DNA of 32,000 nucleotides. Source: Haloferax volcanii DS2. Lineage in GTDB: Archaea; Halobacteriota; Halobacteria; Halobacteriales; Haloferacaceae. The stretch covers positions 2,130,001 through 2,162,000 of the forward strand of contig NC_013967.1 in the NCBI RefSeq assembly GCF_000025685.1, written 5' to 3'. The number at the start of each line of letters is the position of its first letter. The first letter of the stretch is position 1. This document shows positions 6,760 to 22,816 of the stretch, in pieces. The notes beneath the pieces were generated by a model that did no database searches, was not told the origin of the DNA, and was given only the letters and a program-made list of their open reading frames with translations. Made by a program: the position numbers and the translations under genes.

Positions 6760-9700
6760 ATGAGTGTATCTGTTGACTTTGATAATATCAGACCTGTTGA
6801 AGACTCTCGGAGAAAGGGCTTTGAGGAGTTATGTAGTCAAGTTGCCCACGAATTCGAAGACGTACCCGATACCTGGAAATATACACGCATAGGTGATCCT
6901 GATGCAGGAATTGAATGTAAATGGGAGTCCACTGATGGATCTGTATGGGGCTGGCAGGCCAAGTATGTCGATAATATAGACAACAGTAGCTTGTCTCAAG
7001 TTGATCGCTCTGTAAAACAAGCTTTAGAAAACTACCCTAATCTGAGCCGATACTTCGTCTGTGTTCCCTGCGATAGGCCACACAGCCCCCGTGAAGGTGT
7101 TAAAACTGCTCTTGAGAAATGGAATGATCGAAAAGAGAAGTGGGAAGGATGGGCCGAGGACGAGGGGATGGACGTGGAGTTTGTTTTCTGGGGACAGTCT
7201 GAGCTTTTGGAGTTTCTCAGCCAGGACAAGCATAAAGGAAGGATATATTTCTGGTTTGATTCAGAGCAGCTCACCGATGCCAAGCTTCAGGATGAGATGG
7301 ATGTGTCTATTTCTAATGCAAAGGACCGTTACAGTCCGGAACTGCACGTAGATACGGGTAATGCAGATATTTTTGAGCCGTTAGGCCGGACGCCTACTTT
7401 TGAAGAAGAGGTGGAAGAGCTTCTTGAGGAATTAGACGAGAAAGCAGGTAAACTGTTCACGGAAAAGCGGGTTGAAGTCCTAGAAGAGGCCGACGAAGAT
7501 GCTACCCTAGATCTCCGCGAGTCAATAGACAACCTTCCTAATCTGCTTGAGGATGTTGAGCGAATCCCTGAGGATATCCCCTTATCAGAACTACGTGATA
7601 CCTGTGAGAAAGCAGAGGAGGCAATTCGGGAATTAGAACCCCAGCTTCGAACGCTCAAGGAAGAAGCGGATGCAGAAAAAGACGAAGTAGAAACCCTTGA
7701 GAAGTCCACTCTCTATGATTTCCGTCAACTTCGGAAAGCCGTTACTGGTTTGAAAAATCATATCGATAGTAATGATTTCCAGGCTGCTGAAGACGCCGCG
7801 TTGAAAGTACTTGGGGATGCGGGAGTGGGTAAAACCCATCTGCTCTGTAACGTTGCTAAGAATAGAACCGAGAAGGGTTATCCAACGGTTCTCCTCCTCG
7901 GTGAGAACTTCAGGGACAGAGATATCTGGACGCAGATTATGGAGCGACTGGGCTTAGATTGCACCACTGAAGAATTCCTAGGGGCCTTGGATTCATTCGG
8001 CGAATCCCGCGGTGTTCGATCTCTATTGATGATCGATGCCCTGAATGAAAGTTCAAATCCTCGAATGTGGAACCGGCAGTTGCCAGGCATTCTAAGCAAG
8101 TTAGAAAATTATCCTCATATCAGCTTGTGCGTCAGCTGCCGGACTGGTTACGAGGAACTCATATTCCCTGATAGTACAGAAGAACAGTTTGTTGAGACCC
8201 AGCACTACGGGTTCAATAACGTAGAATACGAGGCTGTAAGAAAATTCTTTAATGAGCATGGTATTGAGCACCAGTCGATACCAGTTCTACGACGAGAATT
8301 CCAGATACCCTTGTTTTTGAAATTGTTCTGCGAAAACTTGGAGAACCGCGGTCAAAGCCGGATATCCCACGGTCCAGAAGGCATCAGCGAGATCTTTGAA
8401 GGATACATAGATGCGGTACATGACCGGCTATATCGCCGGTTGGATTACGATCCGAGCGATAATAAGGTGAGAAAAGCAGTAGAGGCCTTGGCACGTGAGA
8501 TGGCTAAGAAGGGAGAAGGCATGAAGAGGCTTCCTCGGAGTGAAGCAAAGGAAATCGTAGACGACCTATTACCGGGAAGAACCTACTCAGAAAGCCTTTA
8601 CAAAAATATTCTGAGTGAAGGGGTTATCTCAGAGGTAGTCCCCTTTGAGGAGGATGCAGAGGAGGCCGTCCGGTTCTCCTACGATAAATTTGCAGACCAC
8701 AAAATAGCTCAACAGTACTTAGAGCTCTACGTGGATGACGATATTGAGGAAGCTCTTTCAGAGACAGAGGAGCTACAGGAGATCTTTGAGAACCCAGAAC
8801 TGTACGCTGGGCTCATACAGGCCTTGTCTATCCATCTCCCTGAGAAGAAGGATGCAGAAATATTTGATTTTGTAGATTCAGAAGATATACTCAATCCATT
8901 CATTAAGAGCTTAGCTTGGCGGAATCCGGATACGTTGACAGATAGTGATGGAGAATTTAGTGAGGAGGTTGAAGATTATCTCTGGGAAGAGCTGGAGCTT
9001 CTTGATGACCTGCATGAGCTTTGGAGAGTCTTCCTTACATTGTCTACAAGCTCTGATCACCCGCTGAATGCTGAGTACCTTGATGAGGTTCTCAAAGACA
9101 AGGAAGTATTTAGGCGCGATTTCAATTGGTCCAAGTTCCTGCATGAAGAGTGGAGAGAAGATACGTCTGAGGTGTACCGATTAGTCAACTGGGGATTCTC
9201 TTTAGAAAATCGGCCTGTGGAGTCGTACGAACTGAAGCGGTTAATGTCGATTACTCTCTCCTGGTTCTTTTGCTGTCCAAACAGACATGTTAGAGACCGG
9301 TCGACAAAGGCTATAGTCAATGTCGTAGACTCTGATCTTGAACTCTACAGTGAGTTGGTTGAGCGTTTCCAAGATGTTACTGATCCATATATTTTGGAAC
9401 GGGTCTATGCAGCAGCTTATGGCGGAGTTCTCCGACATAAACAGGATGAAGCAGTTACTGACGTTGCCGAGACCGTGTACGAATTAGAATTTGAGGACAA
9501 CGACCCGACTCCTCACCAGCTCTCAAGAGATTATACGAGAGGGATAATCGAGGTGGCTAACCGTTTGAATGACGGGTTCGACGTTGAGATGGAGAATGTG
9601 AGGCCTCCTTATGACAGTTCTTTCTCTATCGATGTTCCTTCGTCTGATGAGCTTCGTGAGCAAGTTGAAAGCGTCTTAGAGGACTCTGATACTGATTTGA

Positions 9701-10953
9701 ACTCGCGGTTTTGGTGGGGGCTTGTAGGTTCTGACTTTGAAGGACGTGGACACAGTGATTTTGCTCGGTACATTGTTGGAACGAATCATAGTCCTTCTGA
9801 CGTCCATGGTTACGATTTCTCCGGAGAGAAGGCGCTTCGTTGGATTACCAAGCGAGTATTTGACTTGGGCTGGAGACCTGATCTTTTCGGATCGTTCGAT
9901 GACTTTGTCAACCGGAGCTATATGGGTAGGATGGAGAATCGAAAACCGGAGCGGTTCAGTAAAAAATACCAGTGGATAGCCTATCACGAATTGGTGTCTT
10001 GGGTTACGGATAACTGTGATTTCACAGGTTCAATTACAGAACGGCCGTATAATGGGCCTTGGATGCAATTTGACCGGGATATTGACCCTTCGGTACTAGA
10101 TCCTCAAGCTGATTCCGACGTTTCGTTAGATGAGGTTGTAGAATATGATTGCCGTATAGATGAGACTGATTTAGAGGAATGGATTTCAGACCACGAGGAG
10201 TTCCCTGACTTGGTTTCCTTGTTAGATATTTCCGTGGATGGTGAGAGATGGATACCTCTGCATGGTATTTATAAGTGGAGAGCAGACGAGGGCGAAGACT
10301 CCAGACTTGAGAGAGACGTTTTTGCCCGGATAGATACTGTTACAGTAGCTACTGAGAAGAAGGACGAATTGGTGTCTTGGTTAAAGGAGGACTGGGTTGA
10401 TAGCGATGAGCTTGAGAGCACTCCGTTCCACTTGGCTACATTTACTCAGACTTTCTGGGCGGAATATCCCTGGCACCCTTCGATAGAGGAGGGCTGGGAA
10501 GAAGACGTAGATTCTATCCGAGGAGCACCGGTTTCTACGACAGACACCACTGTTGATTTACTCTGGGAGTCAGAGTATGACTGTTCCGTGGACGAGAATT
10601 ATGGGATGTATGCTCCGTCCCCCCCACTTGCGAAATCGCTCGATCTCGAATGGGTAGTTGATTCAAAGGAATTCGTGCAAAAAGGTTCTAACCCTGTTCG
10701 TGTAGCCGATGTGTCTACTTCCGAAGGGTTGTACGACAGAGTGAACTCGCTTTCAATGTTAGCAGCAAGTGAAGGGATAATCGAAGAGTTAGAGGAAGAA
10801 GAGCTTTCCTTGGTTTGGATTATACAAGGAGAGAAACGGCTACTTACTGATGATGCTGCAGGAACCGGAATGGGTCTTAGTCAGATTAGAGCAGTCTACT
10901 ATCTAGACGAAGGAGAGTGGACGGGAGAAATGGACAGCGGTTACTACAACTGA
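6760..10953 (+). CDS. Giant STAND/NACHT-like P-loop NTPase with N-terminal PD-(D/E)xK-type nuclease-like domain and ~900-aa C-terminal putative sensor region (Avs/NLR-like architecture)
   Basis: 1397 aa. The N-terminus reads GFEELCSQVAHEF...GDPDAGIECKWES..WGWQAKY (nt ~6891-6965), giving an E...D...E-x-K / Q-x-K pattern. An acidic coiled coil follows. Walker A is LGDAGVGKTHLL (nt ~7811-7846), Walker B is LLMIDALNES (~8024-8053), and ISLCVSCRTGY is sensor-1-like, as in NACHT hhhTSR. Confidence 0.85.
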   Translation: MSVSVDFDNIRPVEDSRRKGFEELCSQVAHEFEDVPDTWKYTRIGDPDAGIECKWESTDGSVWGWQAKYVDNIDNSSLSQVDRSVKQALENYPNLSRYFVCVPCDRPHSPREGVKTALEKWNDRKEKWEGWAEDEGMDVEFVFWGQSELLEFLSQDKHKGRIYFWFDSEQLTDAKLQDEMDVSISNAKDRYSPELHVDTGNADIFEPLGRTPTFEEEVEELLEELDEKAGKLFTEKRVEVLEEADEDATLDLRESIDNLPNLLEDVERIPEDIPLSELRDTCEKAEEAIRELEPQLRTLKEEADAEKDEVETLEKSTLYDFRQLRKAVTGLKNHIDSNDFQAAEDAALKVLGDAGVGKTHLLCNVAKNRTEKGYPTVLLLGENFRDRDIWTQIMERLGLDCTTEEFLGALDSFGESRGVRSLLMIDALNESSNPRMWNRQLPGILSKLENYPHISLCVSCRTGYEELIFPDSTEEQFVETQHYGFNNVEYEAVRKFFNEHGIEHQSIPVLRREFQIPLFLKLFCENLENRGQSRISHGPEGISEIFEGYIDAVHDRLYRRLDYDPSDNKVRKAVEALAREMAKKGEGMKRLPRSEAKEIVDDLLPGRTYSESLYKNILSEGVISEVVPFEEDAEEAVRFSYDKFADHKIAQQYLELYVDDDIEEALSETEELQEIFENPELYAGLIQALSIHLPEKKDAEIFDFVDSEDILNPFIKSLAWRNPDTLTDSDGEFSEEVEDYLWEELELLDDLHELWRVFLTLSTSSDHPLNAEYLDEVLKDKEVFRRDFNWSKFLHEEWREDTSEVYRLVNWGFSLENRPVESYELKRLMSITLSWFFCCPNRHVRDRSTKAIVNVVDSDLELYSELVERFQDVTDPYILERVYAAAYGGVLRHKQDEAVTDVAETVYELEFEDNDPTPHQLSRDYTRGIIEVANRLNDGFDVEMENVRPPYDSSFSIDVPSSDELREQVESVLEDSDTDLNSRFWWGLVGSDFEGRGHSDFARYIVGTNHSPSDVHGYDFSGEKALRWITKRVFDLGWRPDLFGSFDDFVNRSYMGRMENRKPERFSKKYQWIAYHELVSWVTDNCDFTGSITERPYNGPWMQFDRDIDPSVLDPQADSDVSLDEVVEYDCRIDETDLEEWISDHEEFPDLVSLLDISVDGERWIPLHGIYKWRADEGEDSRLERDVFARIDTVTVATEKKDELVSWLKEDWVDSDELESTPFHLATFTQTFWAEYPWHPSIEEGWEEDVDSIRGAPVSTTDTTVDLLWESEYDCSVDENYGMYAPSPPLAKSLDLEWVVDSKEFVQKGSNPVRVADVSTSEGLYDRVNSLSMLAASEGIIEELEEEELSLVWIIQGEKRLLTDDAAGTGMGLSQIRAVYYLDEGEWTGEMDSGYYN

Positions 10954-10966: not shown

Positions 10967-11383
10967 TTAGATCTTCTTCTGAATCTGCTTCTTAAACAAC
11001 CTGAATGATCCCTTTAGTTCCTCTAACTCATCTTCAACAGTCTTCACCCGCTCGACAACCTCACGGTGACTCAAATCCTCGTACTCAGTCATACTCTCTG
11101 GCTCCGACTGCTCCAAGTACCGGTGGGCTTTCCCCGTGAGCTTTGCTTCTTTGGGGTGTTGGAAGACTCTTTTTTGGCCGTCGATAACCCGCTCTACCAT
11201 CTTATCTGGTTTCTCTACGGTGATTAGGCCTAGATCTTCCAGTTTTTCGAAGCAGTAGGAGACGTGGTGGTTTTCGAGTGTGGTTTCTGCGGTGATTTTC
11301 TGGACGTCGTCGAGGCCTTTTTCGATGTGTTTCAGGACGACGTGGTCCTTGTCCCGTATCTCCTCGAATTCTTCTTCAGTCAT
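10967..11383 (-). CDS. Winged-helix (MarR/ArsR-like) DNA-binding protein with C-terminal coiled coil; last gene of the T4SS-like operon
   Basis: 138 aa. VLKHIEKGLDDVQKITAETTLENHHVSYCFEKLEDLGLITVEK...KLTGKAHRYLE fits a wHTH pattern. ATGA overlap with the upstream ATPase gene. Confidence 0.75.
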   Translation of the reverse strand: MTEEEFEEIRDKDHVVLKHIEKGLDDVQKITAETTLENHHVSYCFEKLEDLGLITVEKPDKMVERVIDGQKRVFQHPKEAKLTGKAHRYLEQSEPESMTEYEDLSHREVVERVKTVEDELEELKGSFRLFKKQIQKKI

Positions 11384-13299
11384 TCTCCTTCAAGTAGGAC
11401 GCATTGCTGTTCGAGTTCGGTGCAGAATCCTTCTTCGTCGCGGTGTAGGCAGAAGGCCTCTAAGTCGTCACGGCTGTTTGCATCGAGTTCTGGGCATTCT
11501 GGTTCGACAGCTTCGTTGTGTACTTCCAAGTTGTCTTCTTTGACTTCGATTACCCGGTATTCTGCTTCTTCTAGTTCTTCGAATTGGGTGAAGGCCTCGC
11601 TGTTTTCGTCGGTGTAGTAGCTGTAGCTGCCTTGTTCGTCGTTGTATTCGTTGCCGCGGCGGTTTTTGGGGTCGTCGACGATGTTCTGAAGTTTCGCTGC
11701 TTTCCCCTGCTGGACGACGTAGAAGACTTCGCGGTCTTCTTCGACGGCTCGTTTGAGGTTGCGTAGGACTTTGACGGGCCGGGAGAGTGTGCTGTGTTCT
11801 GCTTCGAGGTGTGCGATCTCTCCGTTGGGGAGGTGTACGTGGCCGTCTGGTTTGTTGTCGCCTGTGTCTTGGTACAGTAGGTTGACTTGGAAGCCGCGTT
11901 CCTCCAGTTGTTTCTTGGCTTGTGCGAGGAGTTCTCGGTGTTTGTCTCCGCCGGCGTTGTTTCCTTTTCCGAGGCTTTGGGAGGCCTTGATTTGGGCTTT
12001 TGTTTGGGTGGTTGCGGCGGTGCCCTGTTTTTTGAGTTTGTCGATGTCGGTGTTTTCGGGTTTCCAGGGTGGGTAGGTGTTGAAGAGTACGGCGGAGTTG
12101 TGGCTTTGTTTGCTGGGTTTCTGGACTGCTGCCCGGAACTTGCCTAAGGCTTTGAGCTGGTTTTTGGAGAGGCCTTGGAACATTCCGGCGATCTGGGTTT
12201 CGTTTTCGCTGCCACTGGGGTTGAAGGTGATTTTGGTGCGGCAGTTGTTGACGACTGCTCTCCGCATGTCGGTTGCGAGTTGTTGGAGGTATTGTGTGGC
12301 GAGCCAGCACCCTAAGCGGTATTCTCTGGCTTCGCTGAGTATTTTGGTGAAGTTGCTGCCTTCGCCGCCGAAGTTCTGGAGTTCGTCGACGTAGAGGAAG
12401 AAGGGTGTGCGTTGTTCGACGGGCTGGGTGACCCGGCTTTGTGTTGCGGCCCAGATTTTGGTGGTGACGATGCTTCCGACGAGTTGGGAGACTGTTTCTC
12501 CGACTTCGCCTTTTTGGATGTCGACGAGGAGGATTTTCCCTTGGTTGACGACGTCGCGGAAGTTGACTCCGGATTGTTCTGGGCCGATCACTTTCCGGAT
12601 GGTGGGGTTCATCACGAAGTCGTTTAGCCGGCGCTGGAGAGGTTCCATCTCATACGAGGTCATGTCCTCTTTGACGCGGACGAGTTGCTCTCGGATGATC
12701 TGGTCGTCGGTGTCGTCGATCAGCTCGGTGAGCTGGTCTTGGTTGACGACGCATCGGAAGACGTCGAGCAAGCTGTTTCCCTGATTCTTCTGGATGTTGA
12801 GGTCGAGGTGGGCCCGCAGGAGGGTTTCGAGGACTCTTCCGAACTGGTCACCCCAGTTCTCCGACTGGCGTTTGAACAGGTCGATGAGGTCGGAGACGAT
12901 GATCTCTTTCTGGTTCTCTCGCTGGGCCTCCGACATTTCCTCGGTGATGTGAGGTTCGAGGACGTTGATCGGTGTAACCGGGTCTCTAGCTGGATTGATG
13001 TAGACGACGTCGTCTCTCCTGTTTTCGGGTAGTTTGGAGAGGAATTCGTCTATTAGGTCGCCTTTCGGATTGATGATTGCGAGGCCGTGGTCTTTCTCTG
13101 CGTCCTGTAATGCGACGTGTATCAGTAGCTGCGTTTTGCCGTATCCGGTGGGGCCGACGTTGAGGACGTGAGTGAGGCGTTTTTCGTCGTCTACTCCGAT
13201 GTTTTCTTCGACGCCGAGGTTGCTTTCACGGCTGCCGAGATAGGTGGTGTTCAGGTTGCCTGTGCTCTGTATCAGGTTCTGGGTTTCTTCGGGGTTCAT
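11380..13299 (-). CDS. Conjugative coupling-protein-like ATPase (FtsK/HerA superfamily; VirD4/TraG/TcpA-like) with C-terminal restriction-endonuclease-fold-like domain
   Basis: 639 aa. Walker A is NVGPTGYGKTQL, followed by LAIINPKGD. Walker B is FFLYVDELQNF, and WLATQYLQQL is also present. The C-terminus reads GGDKHRELL...DGHVHLPNGEIAHLEAEHS...LRNLKRA. No N-terminal TM segment. 4-nt overlaps on both sides. Confidence 0.8.
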   Translation of the reverse strand: MNPEETQNLIQSTGNLNTTYLGSRESNLGVEENIGVDDEKRLTHVLNVGPTGYGKTQLLIHVALQDAEKDHGLAIINPKGDLIDEFLSKLPENRRDDVVYINPARDPVTPINVLEPHITEEMSEAQRENQKEIIVSDLIDLFKRQSENWGDQFGRVLETLLRAHLDLNIQKNQGNSLLDVFRCVVNQDQLTELIDDTDDQIIREQLVRVKEDMTSYEMEPLQRRLNDFVMNPTIRKVIGPEQSGVNFRDVVNQGKILLVDIQKGEVGETVSQLVGSIVTTKIWAATQSRVTQPVEQRTPFFLYVDELQNFGGEGSNFTKILSEAREYRLGCWLATQYLQQLATDMRRAVVNNCRTKITFNPSGSENETQIAGMFQGLSKNQLKALGKFRAAVQKPSKQSHNSAVLFNTYPPWKPENTDIDKLKKQGTAATTQTKAQIKASQSLGKGNNAGGDKHRELLAQAKKQLEERGFQVNLLYQDTGDNKPDGHVHLPNGEIAHLEAEHSTLSRPVKVLRNLKRAVEEDREVFYVVQQGKAAKLQNIVDDPKNRRGNEYNDEQGSYSYYTDENSEAFTQFEELEEAEYRVIEVKEDNLEVHNEAVEPECPELDANSRDDLEAFCLHRDEEGFCTELEQQCVLLEGE

Positions 13300-14267
13300 G
13301 GCTGAGCGTTTTGGATGTTGTCCTGTTTCCGATTCGGGAGTGAGAGAAGAGCTGAGAGCTCGTCCTTGGTAGCCTGGAATTTCTGGCTCCAGCCCTGGAA
13401 CTCTCTACGTTGGACTGCCTGTGCGAAGGAAAGAATCTGGCTGCGGCGGAACGGTGTTACCGTGGTCGCGTTCAGGTACTGGCCTGTTTCCGGGTTTTCG
13501 TAGGTGTTGAACGCTCCGGAGATCTCTTTAACTCTGCTAGGCGTGTACTCGGCTGCATTGATGATGAGCAGCCTGATCGAGACGTGGAATCGGGGGCTGC
13601 CAGCCTTGTTCTCGATTGCGTCTGCCTGTTTCTTTTCCCGCGGTGTTGGAGGCCTTGACCCCCAGAGTTTCTCTTTCTCTCTCCGCAGGTGGCCGATTCG
13701 CTGGTAGGCCCGTTTCCGCCAGTAGTAGCGACGTAGAGGTTGGCCGATAACCGGTCGGAAGAGGATCTGGATTACGAACCGGGTGTTCTGCATTGCGTGG
13801 CGGTGGAGTGCTGCGACTACCGAGTCCACCGGTGGTTGGTCGAAGCTGGTCTTCAGTGGGTACCAGTCGGTTCTTCCCGCGGTGAGCAGGCCGCCGCCTA
13901 CAGTATCCTCTTCACGGATTGGTAGGCCGTTGACTCCTTCTTTGAGTTCGACGTGTGGTGTGTCGTTTGTGAGGTGTGTCCGGATTTTTCGTTCGAGGCG
14001 TTTAGTCGGGGCTGCGTACTGGAACTGGAGTTTTCCGGGTGTGGTGCGGCGGATTTCGTACGCTATGGTCGGTGACGTGTTTTTCAGGCCGAGGTACTTG
14101 GTCTGGTATTCGAGTACTCCATCTGCCAGGTTTTGCAGCTTGCTCGGTGTGTCTTCGTCTCTCGGTGGCCGGGCTTCGACGGTGTACGGCAGTTTGGTTA
14201 CCCCCGTAGCCAAGTTCTCTGCCGTGTCTTCGTCGAGCTCGGCGTGGTTGTACCGGAGAACGGTCAC
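13296..14267 (-). CDS. Hypothetical protein of the T4SS-like operon (basic central segment)
   Basis: 323 aa. GTGA and ATGA overlaps with both neighbours. No motif I can name. Confidence 0.7.
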   Translation of the reverse strand: MTVLRYNHAELDEDTAENLATGVTKLPYTVEARPPRDEDTPSKLQNLADGVLEYQTKYLGLKNTSPTIAYEIRRTTPGKLQFQYAAPTKRLERKIRTHLTNDTPHVELKEGVNGLPIREEDTVGGGLLTAGRTDWYPLKTSFDQPPVDSVVAALHRHAMQNTRFVIQILFRPVIGQPLRRYYWRKRAYQRIGHLRREKEKLWGSRPPTPREKKQADAIENKAGSPRFHVSIRLLIINAAEYTPSRVKEISGAFNTYENPETGQYLNATTVTPFRRSQILSFAQAVQRREFQGWSQKFQATKDELSALLSLPNRKQDNIQNAQP

Positions 14268-14617
14268 GGTTCTAGGGCGAGTATTTCTTCGTTCTCGTGA
14301 TTGTTCTCCAGTTCTTGGACCTGTTGCTGCATGGCTTGGGCCATCATCTGGTTCTGACCTTCCAGGGATTGGGCGAGCTCCTGCATTTTCTGCATAAGGG
14401 CCTGTGTTTCCTGGAATTCGGCCTTCATTTTCTGCATCCGTTTCTGGGCGAGAGCTTGGAAGAGCTGTTCTAGGTTTTGGGATTGGACTTGTTGCGGGGT
14501 GCTGTGTTGGAGTTCGTTGATGTCGATTTGGATGTCTCCGCTTCCTTGGGAGACGACTGTGACGTCGGTGTTTCCGTTCTGGTTCGAGATCTGGATTCGG
14601 GTTTTCTGGTGGTTCAT
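14264..14617 (-). CDS. Gln-rich coiled-coil protein
   Basis: 117 aa with a Q/M-rich heptad-like C-terminal half (QALMQKMQELAQSLEGQNQMMAQAMQQQVQELE). 4-nt overlaps with both neighbours. Confidence 0.65.
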   Translation of the reverse strand: MNHQKTRIQISNQNGNTDVTVVSQGSGDIQIDINELQHSTPQQVQSQNLEQLFQALAQKRMQKMKAEFQETQALMQKMQELAQSLEGQNQMMAQAMQQQVQELENNHENEEILALEP

Positions 14618-16380
14618 TGTTCGATGAGTCTGTGTTCGGTCGGGGTTGCGTGTACGCGGATTTTGGCGTCGAGGCGTCCGCTGACTTTCATTACGGCTTC
14701 TGAGTACTGTGCGTCGGTTCCTGTTTTGAGGTCGTAGAGATCGATCTCCTCCTGTTCTGAGAGCTGGAAGTGGTCGATCATTTCTTGGCTGACGCGTTCG
14801 TGGCGGAAGAACAGCTTTCCGGGCATCTGGTCGAGCAGGGTTCTCCCCTCTGTGTACTGGGTGAAGTCGTTGGCCGACTGGCTGACCAGTGTGATTGCGG
14901 TAGAAGTGTCTCGTGCTTCTCTCACCCAGCGGGTCAGGATTTCTCGGCCTCGGCCCACACCTGACACGTTGTGGGCTTCATCGGCCACTACCAGGGTCCG
15001 CCGATCATTTTGGCTGGTAACCTGGTAGAGGTGTTCGATCAGGTCGATGATCTCCGGGATGTTCTCTGATTGGCCTCTTGAGGTGACTTGGAAGCAGGAG
15101 GCCTTACCTAGTTTTTCTGGCCGGTCTTGTACGGTGTAGGTTTGGCCGTTGAGGGCTTTGATGAGGTTGTGGTACTCGTTTTTCGGGTCGATGACGATTA
15201 TCTGGATGTCGGGGTATGCGAGGATGGCTCGGAGGAGTTCGATTTTGGTGTGGAAGGTTTTTCCTGAGCCGGTGGCTCCGAATCTTGCGAGGTGGGGTGC
15301 GTGCCACTGGAAGCGATCTTGAAGTATGGGTGTGCCGTCGTATTGATCTTCTCCGTAGATGATTCCGGATGACTGGTTGATTGTCCGGGTGGCGAATGGG
15401 AATCCAGCAGCGGCGGAGTCACTGAGCTGTAGCTGGGTCTCCTGTAACGGGTCGAGTTGAAGCGGGTTGCAGGCCTTCTGTGCTTGATCGGTTCTGAAGA
15501 CAGGTTCCTCAAATCCGATGCCCATCCGCTTTAACCGTGATTTGAGTTGTTGGAAGGCTTGGTTGCAGTCTTCCTTGTTGTCTGCGTGGGTGGAGATGTA
15601 GACGGCGTAGTCGAAGGCCTGTTGCTCCCTGTTGGCAAGTTTGTCGAGCATCCAGTCAACGGCGTCGAGTTTGGATTCGAGTTCGTTGGTGTCAAGGAAG
15701 CCGGATGCAAGCCGGGAGTTGATCTCGGCGTTCAGCTTCTCTTTCAAACGGTTGAGTGTGGAGACGGTGTTAGCGGAGTCTCTTGGTTTGATGAGTTGAG
15801 CTACGTCGATTTTGCCATCGACGCGGAGAAGTTCCAAGGGCCAGGCCAGTTCCAGCTGACTAGGGTATTCAGTGATTATGAGTGCCCGCCGGTATTCCTG
15901 TCCGGTGGAGACGTACCGAGGTGTTGGGTTGCTGTGAGAGGTTTCGAGTTCTTCGGCAGGGATTTCCGTTGCGGAGAGGTTAGCGGTGTTGAGTGAGTCG
16001 GTAATCTGTTGGGTTCTCCGCTGTACCTCACTCTCTAGATCCTCCCTGGTTTCAGAATCCAGTACCGAGGCGAGGAATCCTCGGCCTGATGCGGTGACTG
16101 GTGTAGTGATGTAGTGTTCAGTGGTGACGAGTGATTCGTCGTTGAGACGGCTGCAGTACCTGAGATAATCCTCCCAGAGCTCCCTACGGATGGAGAACCG
16201 GTCTTTCAGGTATTCGGCGTAGGGCTGAAGCTCTAAATCGCGTTGCAGCGAGTAGATGTTGATTGGGTAGTCGGCCTGATTCAGAACCTGTTTGAAGTTC
16301 TGATGGACTCCTAAAGCCTCCTTCTCAGTCATCAGCTCCAAGTTTGTCGGCGTAACTTGGATCGCTCCGTACTGTGTCAT
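14614..16380 (-). CDS. VirB4/TrbE/PrgJ-like type IV secretion ATPase
   Basis: 588 aa. Walker A is RFGATGSGKTF, followed by IIVIDPKNEY. Walker B is TLVVADEAHNV, and ITLVSQSANDF is present. The N-terminal domain (GAIQVTPTNLELMTEKEA..) resembles VirB4 N-termini. Confidence 0.85.
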   Translation of the reverse strand: MTQYGAIQVTPTNLELMTEKEALGVHQNFKQVLNQADYPINIYSLQRDLELQPYAEYLKDRFSIRRELWEDYLRYCSRLNDESLVTTEHYITTPVTASGRGFLASVLDSETREDLESEVQRRTQQITDSLNTANLSATEIPAEELETSHSNPTPRYVSTGQEYRRALIITEYPSQLELAWPLELLRVDGKIDVAQLIKPRDSANTVSTLNRLKEKLNAEINSRLASGFLDTNELESKLDAVDWMLDKLANREQQAFDYAVYISTHADNKEDCNQAFQQLKSRLKRMGIGFEEPVFRTDQAQKACNPLQLDPLQETQLQLSDSAAAGFPFATRTINQSSGIIYGEDQYDGTPILQDRFQWHAPHLARFGATGSGKTFHTKIELLRAILAYPDIQIIVIDPKNEYHNLIKALNGQTYTVQDRPEKLGKASCFQVTSRGQSENIPEIIDLIEHLYQVTSQNDRRTLVVADEAHNVSGVGRGREILTRWVREARDTSTAITLVSQSANDFTQYTEGRTLLDQMPGKLFFRHERVSQEMIDHFQLSEQEEIDLYDLKTGTDAQYSEAVMKVSGRLDAKIRVHATPTEHRLIEQ

Positions 16381-16628
16381 AGGTACCTCCCGGCGAGGAA
16401 CCGGATACTGCGGATGATGTGGTGGTCCAGCGGCTGGCTAAACGGCCTTACAGCGTAGAGAATGGCCCCGAGCAACAGAGCCAGAACGAGGTAGATGTAG
16501 GCGTCTGTGAGAACCGCTGCTGTTGCTACGGGCAGAGCAAGTCGGAGTACATCCTTCCAAGTGAACCGGCCGAAGAACTGCATAGAGACGTCTTCAACCG
16601 TTCCAGGGAACTGGAAGCGAGGTTTCAT
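16377..16628 (-). CDS. Small 2-TM membrane protein, VirB3/PrgI-like by position and topology
   Basis: 83 aa. FFGRFTWKDVLRLALPVATAAVL and YLVLALLLGAILYAV are hydrophobic segments. It lies immediately upstream of and overlaps the VirB4-like gene. Confidence 0.6.
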   Translation of the reverse strand: MKPRFQFPGTVEDVSMQFFGRFTWKDVLRLALPVATAAVLTDAYIYLVLALLLGAILYAVRPFSQPLDHHIIRSIRFLAGRYL

Positions 16629-17704
16629 CGTAGCCGCCTCCGGAAGTCCTCAACTCGGCCTGTGGTCTCACTGTTCGCTCTCTTCCTCTGATTTTCTCGG
16701 AGACGCTGACGTTGATCAGCCGTGAGACCAGGGCCGTTCTCTGAGGAATCGCCGCCGCTATCCATGCTATTGGAGATGGTGTGTGCCTGGCCTACGGCTG
16801 TCTGTGAGGCCGTCCAGATCTGGTATGGAACGAGAAGTAGGAGTGTGAAGGATGCGACTCCGAACATCCAGTTAGACACGCTTTGAAGACCGCTGTTGCC
16901 TGCTCCTCGAAGTAGTGAGAGCGAGAATTTGAGGACGAGGACGTCCGCTGGCCCGATCAGTAGGGCGGCGAACCAGCCAGCTATGAATGTGTCTGCGTAC
17001 CGCCTGGCTTTGGGCAGGCTCCACATTACGGCCAGCAAGGGACTGACTGCGGCTCCGAACAAGATGTAGACGTTGCGGATGAGGAATAGGGCGACGACTG
17101 CGAGTAGGAGAACTGATTCGACTACCCATGCGATGACTAGGCCTGTTGAGAGGCCTGCTACTTGCTGGATGTTCTGGATTTCAGGTGTGAATGCGTGGGT
17201 GAAGGCGTTGGAAAGGTCGACTGCGTACTGTAGGAGGGGGAGTGAGAGTGTGGCGAATATGAGTGCGGCGACGAGCCGGGGCAGTGTTTTCCGGGCTTGG
17301 TTGTAGGAGATGTTGAGGATCGGGCCGATGATGTAGAGTATGCCGGTGGCTGCGAATCCGAGGCCTGCTATAACGTATGATATGATGAGTGTGTCCTGAT
17401 GGACGTCGGATACAGCAGGGTTCGGATGGACAGTTGGCGTAGTGGTGAGGACGGTGATGAGTACGCCGAGTAGGACTTCTGCGAGTTTTCGGAACGGCCA
17501 GAAGATTATGTCCGTGATTGTCTCTCCGAGAGTCTTGCCCTGGGTGAAGTCTTGGATTGTGTCGATTAGGTTTTGAATCCCGTTTAGAATCCCACTGTTG
17601 TCCTCGTCTTCAGTAGGAGTTGTAGTCGTGTTTTCTTGTGCGGAGACGGGTGTAGCTACTAAGGTGAGGGCGATCAGGCCGACAAAGATGATTCTCCGGT
17701 TCAT
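16625..17704 (-). CDS. Polytopic membrane protein with signal peptide, VirB6/TrbL/PrgH-like by topology
   Basis: 359 aa. The signal sequence is MNRRIIFVGLIALTLVATPVSAQE. It has at least 6 hydrophobic helices and a charged R-rich C-terminal tail. Confidence 0.65.
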   Translation of the reverse strand: MNRRIIFVGLIALTLVATPVSAQENTTTTPTEDEDNSGILNGIQNLIDTIQDFTQGKTLGETITDIIFWPFRKLAEVLLGVLITVLTTTPTVHPNPAVSDVHQDTLIISYVIAGLGFAATGILYIIGPILNISYNQARKTLPRLVAALIFATLSLPLLQYAVDLSNAFTHAFTPEIQNIQQVAGLSTGLVIAWVVESVLLLAVVALFLIRNVYILFGAAVSPLLAVMWSLPKARRYADTFIAGWFAALLIGPADVLVLKFSLSLLRGAGNSGLQSVSNWMFGVASFTLLLLVPYQIWTASQTAVGQAHTISNSMDSGGDSSENGPGLTADQRQRLRENQRKRANSETTGRVEDFRRRLR

Positions 17705-17710
17705 TATTCT

Positions 17711-18052
17711 CTAGGTGCAGATCGTGGTTCCGAGTTCCGAAGTGAGGAACTGGATTACCATGTTGGAGGACAGCAGCAGGATCGTGCCGATCACCGTGTT
17801 CTTGGCAACCTGCTTACCTCTACGAGTGTTGTCTTCGCCTGGAAGCAAGACGAACAAGGAGGCGGTTAACAGGCCCAGCGTTCCAAGCGCGATTCCACCG
17901 ATGAACGCTAACTGTGTTAGCGAGTTCAGCAGATCAAACAGTGGCTGGAAGGCCTCTGGGGGGTTGCAGGGAAGGTTGGTGTTTGCTGCTGACAATACTG
18001 TAAGTCTTAGGCTGGTTTTGGGTTTCGAGCGTTGGAGTGGTTTCCTCTGCAT
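17711..18052 (-). CDS. Small membrane protein with two hydrophobic helices, candidate pilin/VirB2-TrbC-like; first gene of the operon
   Basis: 113 aa. Hydrophobic segments are LAFIGGIALGTLGLLTASLFVLL and VIGTILLLSSNMVIQFL. A 6-nt gap separates it from the next gene. Confidence 0.5.
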   Translation of the reverse strand: MQRKPLQRSKPKTSLRLTVLSAANTNLPCNPPEAFQPLFDLLNSLTQLAFIGGIALGTLGLLTASLFVLLPGEDNTRRGKQVAKNTVIGTILLLSSNMVIQFLTSELGTTICT

Positions 18053-18185: not shown

Positions 18186-18617
18186 ATGAACCAGAATGCT
18201 TCCCCAGAGTATGCAGATGAATGGGAGCTCTTCCGTTCTGTAAGTGTCCTTGACAACCATAAGATCAATCTGATTGATGAGCTCCGTCATCTGGTCTTTG
18301 ACGATCCCCTTCAGGGGGAAAGCGTCCTCTGGAATTATGACCGCCTTGAACAAGCCGCAGTTATATCTAATGACTCGATTGGAGGAGGCCGCTATGTGGA
18401 GTATGGGAAGTCTACGTATCAGCTGCCATCTGGCCACATTACTCCTCCAGCAGAAATCAGAAAAAAGGTAGATGGAGATATGGAACTTGGAAGTACTGTG
18501 TATCTCCTCGCGAGCGAAAACATGCTGAAAAGCAAGGTCGCTTGTGCCTTTCTGCTAACCACAGAACAGGCTACGAGAGGGATCGATATCGAGCCTATCG
18601 AGTATGTGTTCAGTTGA
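18186..18617 (+). CDS. Hypothetical acidic protein; C-terminal part faintly AbrB/SpoVT-like
   Basis: 143 aa with a well-placed TATA. GHITPPAEIRKKVDGDMELGSTVYLL resembles the (v)tIP.eiR..l....Gd.v motif. Preferred over the antisense ORF 18165..18437. Confidence 0.55.
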   Translation: MNQNASPEYADEWELFRSVSVLDNHKINLIDELRHLVFDDPLQGESVLWNYDRLEQAAVISNDSIGGGRYVEYGKSTYQLPSGHITPPAEIRKKVDGDMELGSTVYLLASENMLKSKVACAFLLTTEQATRGIDIEPIEYVFS

Positions 18618-21826: not shown

Positions 21827-22816
21827 TTGATTCAAGCACAAGACTATGTTTTCGACGATTTAGACGAATTGTATGAAACCGCGGAAAGAGTTCCTGAGGT
21901 GGATAGGCACGACGTATACGCTCATAACGAAGGATCGGATGAGTGGGAGCAGATTCCGTATCGTGACTCGTTGTGGACTGATGATGGGAGAGCGACGGGC
22001 GTAGTCTCCAGCAGCCAAGATTTCTACAACGTTATTCAGTACGGCGATATCTTGGAGACAGTAGGTGACGCCGTCGAAAGGCACGGTATCGAGCCCTCCG
22101 GCAGGGTTTCGATCTCTCCGACAGCCCACAAGATGAGCGCCAAACTCGACTTCGATCAAGAGGTCTACGCAAACCAAGACGATCCTATCGATCTCGGATT
22201 ACAGATTCAAAGCGGACACAGCGGGTTCCACGGACTGAAGTACGATATCGGAGCCGAACGCCAAGTCTGTTCAAATGGGATGACGGCCTTCATCTCCGAA
22301 CTCGGCTTCGACCAGACACACGGCGAACCATTCCAACCCGGCCTAGCATACAACGCCGTCGACGCAGTGGTCGAATCCCCAGCAGAGATCGAACAGAGAC
22401 TAGCACAGGCCCAGAACCGTGAATTGATGAATCAAGACGAGGCCCTGCTCGTGTTGATGGAGTCCGGAGTCGGCCGATACCTGGAAGACCCTGTTCCAGA
22501 CCTGCTTAACGCGTTATACGATGAGGTAGATGATCCGGAGGCCCCGACACTCTGGGAGACGTATAACGCGGCTACACGCGCACTAACACACTACACCCAG
22601 GACGTCCCAGACTATGAGCTAGCGAACGGCTTTGAGCAAGCAGCCCAACTCTTGGAAACCGGGGGTAATGAGATTCCGGAGCCAGAGCAACTGGGTCGTA
22701 GAGCTGTAGACAGCCGTAGCCGCCAGTTAATCGAACAGGGAGATACGGAGCCGTACTGGCCGGATGAAGAGCAAACCCTGAGAGAACTGATGGAAGCCCA
22801 CGAGCTCCAAGCATAG
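21827..22816 (+). CDS. DUF932-like (phage/plasmid-like) protein
   Basis: 329 aa. FYNVIQYGDILETVGDAVERHG ... LGLQIQSGHSGFHGLKYDIGAERQVCSNGM matches the DUF932 pattern (Y..vqn.e.......; sHDGs......R.vC.N) as I recall it. The start is TTG 21827 or ATT 21830, with GGTGGT at 21819-21824. Confidence 0.75.
   Translation: MIQAQDYVFDDLDELYETAERVPEVDRHDVYAHNEGSDEWEQIPYRDSLWTDDGRATGVVSSSQDFYNVIQYGDILETVGDAVERHGIEPSGRVSISPTAHKMSAKLDFDQEVYANQDDPIDLGLQIQSGHSGFHGLKYDIGAERQVCSNGMTAFISELGFDQTHGEPFQPGLAYNAVDAVVESPAEIEQRLAQAQNRELMNQDEALLVLMESGVGRYLEDPVPDLLNALYDEVDDPEAPTLWETYNAATRALTHYTQDVPDYELANGFEQAAQLLETGGNEIPEPEQLGRRAVDSRSRQLIEQGDTEPYWPDEEQTLRELMEAHELQA

What the first reader, a model, noticed from the sequence alone, without database searches (positions are those of the whole stretch)
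10967..18052. Nine-gene T4SS/conjugation-like operon, seven genes of which are linked by six consecutive 4-nt overlaps
The order on the minus strand is: 2-TM pilin-like (113 aa), signal-peptide polytopic VirB6-like (359 aa), 2-TM VirB3/PrgI-like (83 aa), VirB4 ATPase (588 aa), Q-rich coiled coil (117 aa), unknown 323 aa, coupling-protein-like ATPase (639 aa), wHTH (138 aa). From 16628 down to 11380 every junction is an ATGA or GTGA overlap. The VirB6-VirB3-VirB4 order mirrors the Gram-positive/archaeal (FATA-type) mating-pair-formation layout. No relaxase is recognisable anywhere in the window, and the coupling protein lacks a membrane anchor. DNA processing and recruitment in this archaeal system are therefore unexplained, and the 323-aa and Q-rich proteins are candidates for those roles.
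Basis: partly seen in the sequence, partly recalled or inferred. Interest (0 to 1): 0.65.

Follow-up and report, generated by a model that had tools for sequence, protein, structure and literature searches.

The report
Archaeal conjugation operon with nuclease-fused coupling ATPase
This is a real DNA-transfer (type IV secretion) operon on a mobile element of a salt-loving archaeon. Its coupling motor has no membrane anchor but has a detached VirB4-like front domain and a built-in nuclease-like domain, a testable candidate for the relaxase that archaeal conjugation seems to lack.

Summary
Eight (not nine) minus-strand genes occupy 10967-18052, and seven are joined by six consecutive 4-nt overlaps (ATGA five times, GTGA once). 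The type IV secretion reading is supported: T4SS-type pilin, VirB6/TrbL-like, VirB3-like, VirB4, VirD4/TraG-like coupling ATPase and a winged-helix protein.

The core operon is syntenic in 25 haloarchaeal genomes. It belongs to the integrated elements already reported to carry VirB4/TraG next to archaeal fusexins (Moi 2022), so the operon itself is a known kind.

Three points appear to be new:
- The 323-aa protein (DUF8128) is the detached N-terminal module of the coupling ATPase. In 26 distant relatives the two are one polypeptide. Its model matches only R388 VirB4/TrwK.
- The last 200 residues of the coupling ATPase form a PD-(D/E)xK nuclease-like domain with invariant D485/E499/E501 and four invariant cysteines. 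No Pfam model detects it.
- The Q-rich gene is not conserved.

No relaxase appears in the scanned ORFs of the window or in the shared gene families of the related loci. The fused nuclease is my best, still unproven, candidate for DNA processing.

The parts
17711..18052 (-). T4SS pilin-like protein (113 aa; leader plus two hydrophobic helices)
   Evidence: Pfam PF18895 T4SS_pilin, E 6.8e-6, 26.5 bits against a cut-off of 26.6. Same family on record as 'weak'. Two TM-like segments. Homologue at this position in 20 of 25 related loci.
16625..17704 (-). VirB6/TrbL-like polytopic membrane protein (359 aa) with a signal-like N-terminus
   Evidence: PF19590 TrbL_3 on record for this protein and for its Haloplanus natans homologue. 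The local hmmscan did not reproduce this hit. Multiple TM segments. Present in 23 of 25 loci.
16377..16628 (-). VirB3-like small membrane protein (83 aa)
   Evidence: Aligns to residues 6-72 of the 729-aa fused VirB3-VirB4 of L015 (32% identity, E 2e-9). The FGxFTxxD motif is in the N-terminal consensus of the fused VirB4 alignment A4. One long hydrophobic stretch at residues 30-65.
14614..16380 (-). VirB4-family ATPase (588 aa)
   Evidence: NCBIfam VirB4_plasma 3.1e-37, conju_CD1110 5e-37, VirB4_CagE 1.2e-14, against HerA_antiphage 5e-4. Pfam AAA_10 at 49 bits, above the 27.5 cut-off. The family profile hits the solved VirB4 domain 4ag5 at 2e-18.
14264..14617 (-). Q-rich (22% Gln) coiled-coil-like 117-aa protein; a lineage-specific accessory gene in a variable slot
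   Evidence: No family hit. The slot between VirB4 and DUF8128 is absent in most relatives. It holds unrelated 110-132 aa ORFs in L010, L011 and L014, or a TM tail on VirB4 in L021, L023, L025 and L029.
13296..14267 (-). DUF8128 protein (323 aa): detached N-terminal, VirB4-like module of the coupling ATPase; basic, with no TM segment
   Evidence: PF26449 on record. AF2 model pLDDT 89.4. The only significant Foldseek PDB hits are six chains of R388 TrwK/VirB4: E 8e-6 to 2e-3, probability 0.99-1.00. DUF8128-like domains are fused N-terminally to this ATPase family in 26 distant proteins. K+R 15.2% against D+E 10.8%.
12010..13299 (-). VirD4/TraG-type coupling ATPase domain (residues 1 to about 430 of the 639-aa protein), with no membrane anchor
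   Evidence: Pfam TrwB_AAD_bind at 33.8 bits (cut-off 20.5) and TraG-D_C at 29.3 bits (cut-off 22). NCBIfam conju_CD1115 1.5e-7 and SXT_TraD 2e-6. No TM segment. Homologues are 53-92% identical across haloarchaeal genera.
11665..11952 (-). PD-(D/E)xK nuclease-like core in the C-terminus of the coupling ATPase (residues about 450-545; E466, P484-D485, E499-A-E501, K510, N514)
   Evidence: D485, E499, E501, K510, N514 and R517 are invariant in 28 sequences. AF2 pLDDT is 75-93 over this core. Foldseek hits: VRR_NUC 4qbn_A at probability 1.00, 3dnx at 0.99, EndoMS 5gke at 0.90, and restriction enzymes including OkrAI. No Pfam hit. The domain recurs in 14 distant fused relatives and on a Natrinema plasmid.
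11401..11496 (-). Four-cysteine tail of the coupling ATPase (C602, C617, C626, C633); a putative metal-binding module
   Evidence: All four Cys are invariant or nearly so in the alignments. Model confidence is low, pLDDT about 50-63. In the two homologues P0227 and P0232 this tail is replaced by a fused wHTH.
10967..11383 (-). Winged-helix DNA-binding protein (138 aa), translationally coupled to the coupling ATPase
   Evidence: Weak Pfam HTH_27 and DUF2250 hits. Conserved downstream of the ATPase in most of the complete loci. Fused to the C-terminus of the ATPase in P0227: 62% identity over 89 residues, E 4e-32.
21827..22816 (+). DUF932 protein (329 aa): conserved companion gene of the operon, function unknown
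   Evidence: Pfam DUF932 at 37 bits, above the 23 cut-off. Present 2-4 kb upstream on the opposite strand in 18 of 25 loci, mostly 55-84% identical (31% in one locus). Equals arCOG12186, which Moi et al. list in 8 of their elements. No solved relative by sequence.
18186..18617 (+). 143-aa protein transcribed divergently from the pilin gene; semi-conserved companion
   Evidence: Homologues in the same divergent position in about 10 loci, 25-34% identical. No family hit.

Best explanation
The operon encodes the mating apparatus of an integrated, self-transmissible element of a haloarchaeon.

**Envelope conduit.** The pilin, the VirB6-like channel protein and VirB3 plus VirB4 build it, as in the minimal Gram-positive/archaeal T4SS.

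**Substrate side.** This part is built differently from bacterial systems. The VirD4/TraG-type coupling ATPase has no transmembrane anchor. Its N-terminal module has been split off as a separate, translationally coupled protein, DUF8128. That module has a VirB4-like fold, by inference the N-terminal domain. I infer that it docks the soluble motor onto the VirB3/VirB4/VirB6 membrane complex. It is unusually basic for a halophile protein, so it may also contact DNA.

**DNA processing.** The C-terminus of the motor carries a PD-(D/E)xK nuclease-like domain with a BamHI-like D...ExE site, followed by a four-cysteine tail. The winged-helix protein, encoded by the next gene and fused to the motor in two genomes, would select the DNA site. 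I propose that the fused nuclease makes the initiating cut in the excised element and that the same polypeptide pumps the DNA out. On this view it replaces the separate HUH relaxase of bacteria.

**Shown:** gene identities, synteny, the domain fusions, the fold matches and the residue conservation.

**Inferred:** the docking role, nuclease activity, its role in transfer, and export rather than import.
For: - T4SS identities.
- The core operon pilin, VirB6, VirB3/4, DUF8128, ATPase, wHTH is syntenic in 25 haloarchaeal genomes.
- The trio VirB4, DUF8128-like, ATPase-nuclease also lies on a 90-kb Natrinema plasmid.
- Mobile context: two integrases, Orc1/Cdc6, RM and Avs2 cargo, and a GC jump.
- The ATPase is 83-85% identical between different haloarchaeal families, which implies recent horizontal transfer.
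- DUF8128 as the ATPase N-module: 26 distant DUF8128-like proteins have the same ATPase fused behind it, with Walker A at residues about 370-600, in Halobacteria and a Thermoplasmatota MAG.
- DUF8128 model: pLDDT 89. Its only significant PDB matches are TrwK/VirB4 chains. The VirB4 C-domain-only entry 4ag5 and other RecA-type ATPases are absent from the 50 listed hits, which points to the N-domain.
- Nuclease domain: invariant E466, D485, E499, E501 and K510. Secondary structure is alpha-beta-beta-beta-alpha-beta. Foldseek hits are VRR_NUC, EndoMS/NucS and restriction enzymes. The PD and ExE motifs are kept in distant fused relatives where the region aligns.
- The wHTH-ATPase fusion.
- No relaxase-like family in the scanned ORFs of the window or the shared gene families of the related loci.
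- Reviews state that no relaxase is known for any archaeal conjugative element (PMC9905601, PMC12857230, PMC6563490).
Against: - No transfer has been shown for this family. Nuclease activity is untested.
- PD-(D/E)xK enzymes hydrolyse DNA without the covalent 5' attachment that lets relaxases pilot and religate the strand, so a different, unexplained termination step would be needed.
- The Foldseek E-values for the nuclease domain are modest (best 6e-3). The third catalytic position is Glu, not Lys. K510 is not conserved in distant relatives.
- DUF8128 has no sequence similarity to this family's own VirB4 (hhalign probability 0.05). The tool did not show which part of TrwK aligned. TM-scores are below 0.5.
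- The ATPase also matches a generic defence ATPase model, mad8, at 1e-15.
- DUF932, which is better conserved than the membrane and VirB4 genes of the operon, is an equally unexplored candidate for DNA processing.
- The VirB6 Pfam hit on record was not reproduced by my own scan.
Confidence: 0.55

Rival explanations
1. It is a DNA-uptake or exchange machine like the crenarchaeal Ced/Ted systems. The pilus and VirB4/VirB6 apparatus would import DNA into the cell that carries it. The nuclease-ATPase would process incoming DNA rather than export the element.
For: The only archaeal T4SS-like systems with a known direction, Ced and probably Ted, are importers built from a VirB2-like pilin, a VirB6-like protein and a VirB4-like ATPase (PMC9905601). 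The window's VirB4 and ATPase give weak hits to CedB and CedD models. No relaxase is present.
Against: The CedB/CedD scores are far below the curated cut-offs (31-38 bits against 600-700) and weaker than the conjugative VirB4 hits. The four named Ced components (CedA, CedA1, CedA2, CedB) include no VirD4-type ATPase (abstract of PMC11868833). This operon has one. It sits with integrases and replication genes on horizontally moving elements and plasmids, and is 83-88% identical across genera.
Confidence: 0.12
2. It is an ordinary conjugation system whose DNA processing is done by something else: DUF932, a host or element-encoded HerA-type helicase-nuclease, or the integrase. The C-terminal PD-(D/E)xK-like domain would be only a DNA-binding or regulatory module, or would act in another process such as resolving or trimming DNA ends.
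For: DUF932 accompanies the operon in 18 of 25 loci at mostly 55-84% identity, has many invariant His/Asp/Cys/Arg residues, and has no known function. A HerA-like ATPase lies in the window at 25250-27352, and HerA is a signature gene of the fusexin elements. HerA-NurA has been proposed to make ssDNA for archaeal transfer (PMC9905601). Many PD-(D/E)xK domains are inactive binders.
Against: All acidic active-site residues are invariant across 28 sequences at 53-85% identity and are kept in distant fused relatives, which argues for catalysis. The nuclease domain is physically part of the motor in chromosomal elements, plasmids and a Thermoplasmatota relative. HerA-like genes are seen near the operon in only two of the 25 loci.
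Confidence: 0.23
3. The DUF8128, ATPase-nuclease and wHTH trio is a defence or addiction module (ATPase plus nuclease) that merely travels with the T4SS genes.
For: ATPase plus PD-(D/E)xK nuclease is a common defence architecture. The ATPase hits the PADLOC mad8 and DndH models. The neighbourhood is rich in defence genes: Avs2, type I RM and a methylase.
Against: In every locus complete on that side, the DUF8128-ATPase pair sits immediately downstream of VirB4 in the same orientation, usually with overlapping reading frames; the wHTH follows in most. The ATPase passes the Pfam cut-offs for T4CP families. DUF8128 matches only VirB4 structurally and no PADLOC family.
Confidence: 0.05

Closest known systems
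VirB4/TraG-bearing integrated mobile elements of haloarchaea described around the fusexin gene fsx1 (Moi et al. 2022, PMC9259645)
   Same: Same element family. The operon is found in three of their fsx1-positive genomes: Haloplanus natans (operon about 10 kb from fsx1), Natrinema altunense AJ2 and Haloferax sp. Q22. The gene set is shared: XerC/D-type integrase, HerA-like ATPase, VirB4, TraG/VirD4, Cdc6 and DUF932 (= arCOG12186).
   Different: No fsx1 lies in the window or within 10 kb of the operon in the fetched loci. That paper lists the membrane proteins and other core genes as 'uncharacterized'. As far as I could search, it does not describe the pilin/VirB6/VirB3 assignments, the split ATPase N-module or the nuclease domain.
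Minimal Gram-positive/archaeal (MPF-FATA-type) conjugative T4SS, e.g. CD1110/CD1115 of Clostridioides ICEs and Mycoplasma ICE VirB4
   Same: Gene order VirB6-like, VirB3-like, VirB4. There are no outer-membrane core genes. The best VirB4 model hits are to these families, and the T4CP hits conju_CD1115.
   Different: No relaxase. The coupling protein lacks its TM anchor, has a separate VirB4-like N-module and carries a fused nuclease-like domain. A VirB2/T4SS-type pilin is present. Scores are far below the equivalog cut-offs (127 bits against 325-590).
Archaeal conjugative plasmids pNOB8/pING (Sulfolobus) and pT33-3 (Thermococcus), and thaumarchaeal ICEs
   Same: Archaeal elements with paired VirB4- and VirD4-like ATPases and no recognisable relaxase (PMC12857230, PMC6563490). 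The thaumarchaeal ICEs also have VirB6 and VirB3 homologues.
   Different: I did not compare sequences with these plasmids. The reviews I read report no nuclease fusion or DUF8128-like module for them.
Ced/Ted DNA-import systems of Crenarchaeota
   Same: VirB2-like pilin, VirB6-like protein and VirB4-like ATPase in an archaeal envelope, with no relaxase (PMC9905601).
   Different: Ced is a chromosomal system that imports DNA and, in its named components, has no VirD4-type ATPase. Hits to CedB and CedD here are marginal.
VRR-NUC / NucS(EndoMS) / BamHI-type PD-(D/E)xK nucleases
   Same: The fold of residues about 450-545 of the ATPase, and an acidic D...ExE constellation like that of BamHI (recalled from memory, not tested here). 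OkrAI, recalled as a BamHI isoschizomer, is among the hits.
   Different: No detectable sequence-family membership. The domain is fused to a T4CP motor and followed by a Cys4 tail. Activity is unknown.

Membership tests
Conjugative type IV secretion system (minimal Gram-positive/archaeal type) | VirB4-family ATPase | tested here: met
   NCBIfam VirB4_plasma 3e-37 and CD1110 5e-37. These are below the equivalog cut-offs, so it is a distant member. Pfam AAA_10 is above its cut-off. The profile hits the solved VirB4 domain 4ag5 at 2e-18.
Conjugative type IV secretion system (minimal Gram-positive/archaeal type) | VirB6/TrbL-like polytopic membrane protein encoded next to VirB3/VirB4 | tested here: met
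   PF19590 TrbL_3 on record for the window protein and the H. natans homologue, plus multiple TM segments. Caveat: my own hmmscan returned no hit.
Conjugative type IV secretion system (minimal Gram-positive/archaeal type) | VirB3-like small membrane protein associated with VirB4 | tested here: met
   The 83-aa protein is homologous to the N-terminus of fused VirB3-VirB4 proteins in relatives (E 2e-9; alignment A4). It has no profile-library hit of its own.
Conjugative type IV secretion system (minimal Gram-positive/archaeal type) | VirB2/T4SS-type pilin | tested here: inconclusive
   PF18895 at 26.5 bits against a cut-off of 26.6. Two-helix hairpin topology. Conserved position.
Conjugative type IV secretion system (minimal Gram-positive/archaeal type) | Relaxase (MOB family) and oriT | tested here: not met
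   No relaxase or HUH family among the Pfam and NCBIfam hits of 27 window ORFs, or among representatives of 10 recurrent flanking gene families of the 25 related loci. PLSDB types the related plasmids as 'non-mobilizable'. I did not search for an oriT beyond a scan for inverted repeats, which found nothing.
Conjugative type IV secretion system (minimal Gram-positive/archaeal type) | Demonstrated cell-to-cell DNA transfer | not testable with these tools
   There is only indirect evidence of mobility: 83-88% identity of the ATPase across genera and families.
VirD4/TraG type IV coupling proteins | FtsK/HerA-type nucleotide-binding domain with an all-alpha domain, matching T4CP profiles | tested here: met
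   TrwB_AAD_bind at 33.8 bits (cut-off 20.5) over residues 42-374. TraG-D_C at 29.3 bits (cut-off 22). CD1115 and TraD hits.
VirD4/TraG type IV coupling proteins | N-terminal transmembrane anchor | tested here: not met
   No TM-like segment. Walker A lies at about residue 50. A soluble DUF8128 module takes the N-terminal position in fused relatives.
VirB4 N-terminal domain (for DUF8128) | Fold similar to the VirB4 N-domain and located N-terminal to a VirB4/VirD4-type ATPase | tested here: inconclusive
   Foldseek: only TrwK/VirB4 chains are significant (E 8e-6 to 2e-3, TM 0.43-0.49), but the aligned range is not shown. The N-terminal position before the ATPase is met in 26 fused relatives. There is no sequence similarity to VirB4 or to any solved protein.
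PD-(D/E)xK nuclease superfamily (for ATPase residues about 450-545) | alpha-beta-beta-beta-alpha-beta core with Asp at beta2 and (D/E)xK at beta3 | tested here: inconclusive
   The fold is met: VRR_NUC at probability 1.00, and NucS and restriction enzymes. The motif is the variant PD...ExE, invariant in 28 sequences. There is no sequence-family hit.
PD-(D/E)xK nuclease superfamily (for ATPase residues about 450-545) | Metal-dependent DNA cleavage | not testable with these tools
   This needs biochemistry.
Ced/Ted archaeal DNA-import systems | CedB-type VirB4 ATPase, no coupling protein, chromosomal non-mobile locus | tested here: not met
   CedB at 31 bits against a cut-off of 700. A T4CP is present. 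The locus lies on a mobile element.
fsx1 (fusexin) integrated mobile elements | Shared backbone genes: integrase, HerA, VirB4, TraG, DUF932/arCOG12186, Cdc6 | tested here: met
   All are present in the window. The operon is present in three of the published fsx1-positive genomes.
fsx1 (fusexin) integrated mobile elements | fsx1 fusogen gene | tested here: not met
   tblastn with the H. natans Fsx1 sequence found nothing in the window. The 559-aa ORF has no solved-structure relative. The element may extend beyond the window.

The most novel reading that the evidence does not exclude
Haloarchaeal conjugative elements, and relatives in Thermoplasmatota, may dispense with a relaxase altogether. 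On this reading a single motor polypeptide recognises the element through its wHTH partner, cuts it with a built-in PD-(D/E)xK nuclease, and pumps the DNA out. The motor would be docked to the VirB3/VirB4/VirB6 complex by a VirB4-N-domain mimic instead of a membrane anchor. That would be a mechanistically distinct, pilot-protein-free mode of conjugative DNA processing, possibly transferring double-stranded or end-processed DNA.
Probability: 0.3. Interest if true: 0.85.

Novelty: new variant of a known kind. Interest (0 to 1): 0.6.

Why it matters
How archaeal conjugative elements prepare their DNA for transfer has been open since the Sulfolobus plasmids were sequenced. Reviews up to the end of 2025 still state that no relaxase has been found.

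This family offers a concrete candidate that can be tested by mutation: a nuclease domain fused to the coupling motor, together with its DNA-binding partner and a dedicated docking module. It occurs in cultivable relatives of genetically tractable haloarchaea, namely Haloferax, Natrinema and Haloplanus.

It also gives identities to several 'uncharacterized' core genes of the fusexin-carrying elements. That bears on whether those elements move by pilus-mediated conjugation, by cell fusion, or by both.

Finally, it shows a T4CP architecture of a VirB4-like N-domain, an ATPase and a nuclease. Current T4CP classifications, which are built around TM-anchored proteins, do not cover it.

Tried and rejected
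- **Fusexin in the window.** The 559-aa ORF has no PDB sequence relative, and tblastn with H. natans Fsx1 found nothing. Rejected for this window.
- **DUF8128 as a paralogue of this family's VirB4 by sequence.** hhalign probability 0.05. The profile against PDB sequences found nothing. The link is by fold and by domain fusion only.
- **Haloarchaeal megaplasmid VirB4 loci as close relatives.** In pHOS300 and pCBA1220-01 the VirB4 is about 25-30% identical, but the neighbours do not match the DUF8128, ATPase or nuclease profiles. This is a different system.
- **Q-rich protein as a core component.** Rejected on lack of conservation.
- **DUF932 function.** Nothing in the literature and no solved relative. 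Structure-prediction jobs were exhausted.
- **att sites or oriT.** Direct-repeat and inverted-repeat scans gave only short, chance-level matches. No tRNA gene is present. The element's ends are probably outside the window.
- **Pfam rescans at E up to 10.** These did not reproduce the recorded PF26449 and PF19590 hits and found nothing for the nuclease domain.
- **Known defence families.** A PADLOC scan found only generic ATPase matches for the ATPase.
- **Literature.** Searches for DUF8128 or for nuclease-fused archaeal coupling proteins found no paper.

Full report
**1. Observation**

A script confirmed the junctions. The pilin and VirB6-like genes are separated by 6 nt. The next six junctions are 4-nt overlaps: ATGA, ATGA, ATGA, GTGA, ATGA, ATGA. 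The title says nine genes, but only eight exist.

Hydropathy gives two hydrophobic helices in the 113-aa protein. It gives a signal-like N-terminus plus several TM segments in the 359-aa protein, and one long hydrophobic stretch in the 83-aa protein. There are none in the 588-, 117-, 323-, 639- and 138-aa proteins.

The operon is a compositional island: GC 0.52-0.56 against 0.44-0.48 in the adjacent flanks. Overlapping start and stop codons are common in operons, so the run signals tight translational coupling and nothing stranger.

**2. Gene identities**

- **VirB4.** The 588-aa protein hits the Mycoplasma-ICE and CD1110 VirB4 models at 3e-37 and 5e-37, and VirB4_CagE at 1e-14, against 5e-4 for HerA. 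It exceeds the Pfam AAA_10 cut-off. A profile of the family finds the solved VirB4 domain 4ag5 at 2e-18.
- **Coupling ATPase.** The 639-aa protein exceeds the gathering cut-offs of TrwB_AAD_bind and TraG-D_C. NCBI already names its homologues 'type IV secretory system conjugative DNA transfer family protein'.
- **Pilin.** The 113-aa protein scores 26.5 bits on T4SS_pilin against a cut-off of 26.6.
- **VirB6-like.** The 359-aa protein carries a TrbL_3 hit in the precomputed records. My own hmmscan did not reproduce it, possibly because of bias filtering of membrane proteins.
- **VirB3-like.** The 83-aa protein has no profile hit. In most relatives, however, VirB4 is 708-831 aa long and its N-terminus is homologous to this protein (E 2e-9; consensus FGxFTxxD). 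This is the VirB3-VirB4 fusion familiar from bacterial systems.

**3. Context and relatives**

The window is a mosaic of mobile-element and defence genes:

- a type I RM specificity gene next to an integrase
- a large methylase
- an Avs2 STAND NTPase (1459 bits)
- DUF932
- a membrane protein plus HerA-like ATPase pair
- a second integrase with a zinc ribbon
- Orc1/Cdc6

A pattern scan of species-representative genomes with the 323-aa family returned 25 loci, nearly all from named Halobacteria. In these the order pilin, VirB6, VirB3/4, DUF8128, ATPase, wHTH is kept. DUF932 lies 2-4 kb upstream on the other strand in 18 loci.

The ATPase is 83-88% identical to those of Haloplanus, Natrinema, Halorubrum and Halalkalirubrum. 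That is much closer than their taxonomic distance would suggest, so the module moves horizontally.

Three of the loci are in genomes that Moi et al. 2022 used to define fusexin-carrying integrated mobile elements. In Haloplanus natans the fsx1 gene (KE386573:2594348-2596255) lies about 10 kb from the pilin gene of this operon. Their list of shared genes includes VirB4, TraG/VirD4, DUF932 (arCOG12186), integrases, HerA and Cdc6, plus several 'uncharacterized' proteins. The element family and its T4SS-like ATPases are therefore already in the literature. The window itself has no fsx1.

**4. The Q-rich protein**

It is not part of the conserved core. In most relatives VirB4 abuts DUF8128 directly. 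In L010, L011 and L014 the slot holds unrelated 110-132 aa ORFs. In four loci VirB4 instead has a hydrophobic C-terminal tail. I treat the gene as a lineage-specific accessory.

**5. The 323-aa protein**

It belongs to Pfam DUF8128. It is 45-69% identical across haloarchaea and in bins labelled Nanohaloarchaea. No searchable paper mentions it. It is basic (K+R 15.2%, D+E 10.8%), unlike most of its neighbours.

An AlphaFold model built on 25 sequences is confident (pLDDT 89.4, pTM 0.88). Against the PDB, the only significant Foldseek matches are six chains of R388 TrwK/VirB4 (E 8e-6 to 2e-3, probability 0.99-1.00, TM 0.43-0.49). Everything below is noise. Neither the VirB4 C-domain-only structure nor any other RecA-type ATPase is among the 50 listed matches, and DUF8128 has no P-loop. 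I therefore infer that the match is to the VirB4 N-terminal domain. The tool does not show the aligned range, and there is no sequence similarity to this family's VirB4.

Independent and stronger evidence comes from an exhaustive profile search of 1.84 billion representative proteins. Many distant DUF8128-like domains lie at residues about 20-350 of much longer proteins. Local profile searches show that 26 of these continue into the same coupling-ATPase family (E down to 1e-64, Walker A at residues about 370-600). Fourteen continue further into the C-terminal domain described below. Pfam confirms this on three of them. Named examples come from Halogranum amylolyticum, Halobaculum saliterrae and a Thermoplasmatota MAG.

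On a 90-kb Natrinema thermotolerans plasmid the same three units are encoded as VirB4, then a DUF8128-like protein, then the ATPase-nuclease, with 8-nt overlaps. DUF8128 is therefore the N-terminal module of the coupling ATPase, split off as a separate gene in this family. This explains the missing membrane anchor. The protein pair has the two-part layout of VirB4 (N-domain plus ATPase) rather than that of a TM-anchored VirD4.

**6. The hidden nuclease-like domain**

Alignment of 28 ATPase homologues (53-85% identical) shows that the last 200 residues are as conserved as the motor. D485 (in KPDG), E499 and E501 (in LEAE), K510, N514, R517 and four cysteines are invariant.

A model of residues 440-639 has pLDDT 75-93 over the core, with the order helix, three strands, helix, strand. 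Asp lies at the start of strand 2 and ExE lies in strand 3. Foldseek returns the following:

- VRR_NUC (probability 1.00, 25% identity)
- the PD-(D/E)xK protein 3dnx (0.99)
- EndoMS/NucS (0.90)
- SfsA
- several restriction enzymes, including OkrAI, which I recall to be a BamHI isoschizomer

From memory, not from a test run here, BamHI's active site also has Glu in place of the usual Lys.

No Pfam model detects the domain. The PD and ExE motifs persist in distant fused relatives where the region aligns, whereas K510 does not. The Cys4 tail is modelled poorly. In two genomes it is replaced by a direct fusion to the winged-helix protein that is otherwise encoded by the next, overlapping gene (62% identity, E 4e-32).

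**7. Mechanism**

Shown: a complete minimal T4SS gene set on a horizontally moving element, and a coupling ATPase that is evolutionarily one unit with a VirB4-like N-module, a nuclease-like domain and a wHTH partner. No relaxase family appears among the 27 scanned window ORFs or among the 10 recurrent flanking gene families tested.

Inferred: after excision by the integrase, the wHTH targets the motor to a site on the element. The fused nuclease makes the initiating cut. The motor is held on the VirB3/VirB4/VirB6 platform by DUF8128 and translocates the DNA through the channel and pilus.

The main weakness is chemical. PD-(D/E)xK enzymes do not form the covalent intermediate that relaxases use to pilot and reseal the strand. 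Termination in the recipient would therefore need recombination, the integrase or host repair.

Alternatives are Ced-like import, processing by DUF932 or HerA-type enzymes, or a hitch-hiking defence module. They are listed with their evidence under rival explanations.

**8. Novelty and verdict**

The operon as a T4SS-like cluster in haloarchaeal integrated elements is a member of a known kind (PMC9259645). The same relaxase puzzle has been noted for Sulfolobus, Thermococcus and thaumarchaeal elements (PMC12857230, PMC6563490, PMC9905601).

Three things appear undescribed in the literature I could search: the architecture of the coupling protein, the identification of DUF8128, and the nuclease domain as a relaxase substitute. 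I file it as a new variant of a known kind. Interest is moderate to high because it turns a long-standing question into specific experiments.

Noticed in passing
window 6760-10953 (+): The 1397-aa protein directly downstream of the operon is an Avs2-type antiviral STAND NTPase (PADLOC Avs2, 1459 bits, E 0). A 67%-identical copy lies in the same position relative to the operon in Halorubrum sp. DTA46 (L019 16066-20103). It looks like defence cargo of the element.
   Followed up: partly
window 69-3265 (+): An HsdM C-terminal fragment and a type I RM specificity subunit lie immediately next to a tyrosine integrase and a 166-aa protein. The specificity subunit has two target-recognition halves sharing a 257-nt repeat at 77% identity (425-681 and 1001-1257). 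Homologues of the integrase (63% identical) and of the 166-aa protein are adjacent in Halosimplex salinum (L025), about 18 kb from a weak, partial hsdS-like hit. This may be a recombinase-switched (phase-variable) RM specificity system.
   Followed up: no
window 23551-27352 (+): A 575-aa membrane protein (weak DUF2254) overlaps by 29 nt a 700-aa HerA/FtsK-like ATPase. The ATPase hits PADLOC mad8 at 5e-23 and NCBIfam CedD at 1.5e-6. A 58%-identical ATPase lies near DUF932 in L029. This is a second, uncharacterised membrane-plus-ATPase pair on the element. HerA is listed as a signature gene of the fusexin elements.
   Followed up: partly
window 21827-22816 (+) and related loci: DUF932 is among the most conserved genes of the element family, mostly 55-84% identical, which is higher than the pilin, VirB6 or VirB4. 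It has many invariant His, Asp, Cys and Arg residues (H101, D119, R145, C148, H165, E189). No function is known, no paper addresses it, and there is no solved relative.
   Followed up: partly
(P0013, P0040, P0186; L026): Close homologues of DUF8128 and the ATPase, about 60% identical, are annotated in Nanohaloarchaea and 'Asbonarchaeum' MAGs. Either the element crosses between haloarchaea and their DPANN symbionts, or these contigs are mis-binned.
   Followed up: no
L001 (Halorientalis pHOS300) 7646-10938; L002 (Halarchaeum pCBA1220-01) 7826-10818: A different, widespread VirB4 system on haloarchaeal megaplasmids. The gene before VirB4 (340-348 aa) matches the N-terminal part of the VirB4 profile, so VirB4 itself appears split there. 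TFIIB genes lie nearby, and there is no DUF8128, ATPase or nuclease match.
   Followed up: partly
window 20003-21682 (-): A 559-aa ORF with no family or structure relative. In some otherwise identical metagenome contigs (L003, L005) gene callers give 445 aa, so the start or the sequence varies. A 549-aa M48-type peptidase (H. natans) and a 615-aa M48/M56-type peptidase (L013) occupy the equivalent region in relatives.
   Followed up: no
window 1-32000: GC mosaic. The T4SS operon (0.52-0.56), the DUF932 region (0.55) and the first integrase region (0.54) are GC-rich. The rest is 0.44-0.51. This suggests a conserved backbone recently imported from higher-GC haloarchaea into a low-GC host, with locally acquired cargo. 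The exact VirB4 protein occurs in 194 blocks of public assemblies, so the host is abundant.
   Followed up: partly
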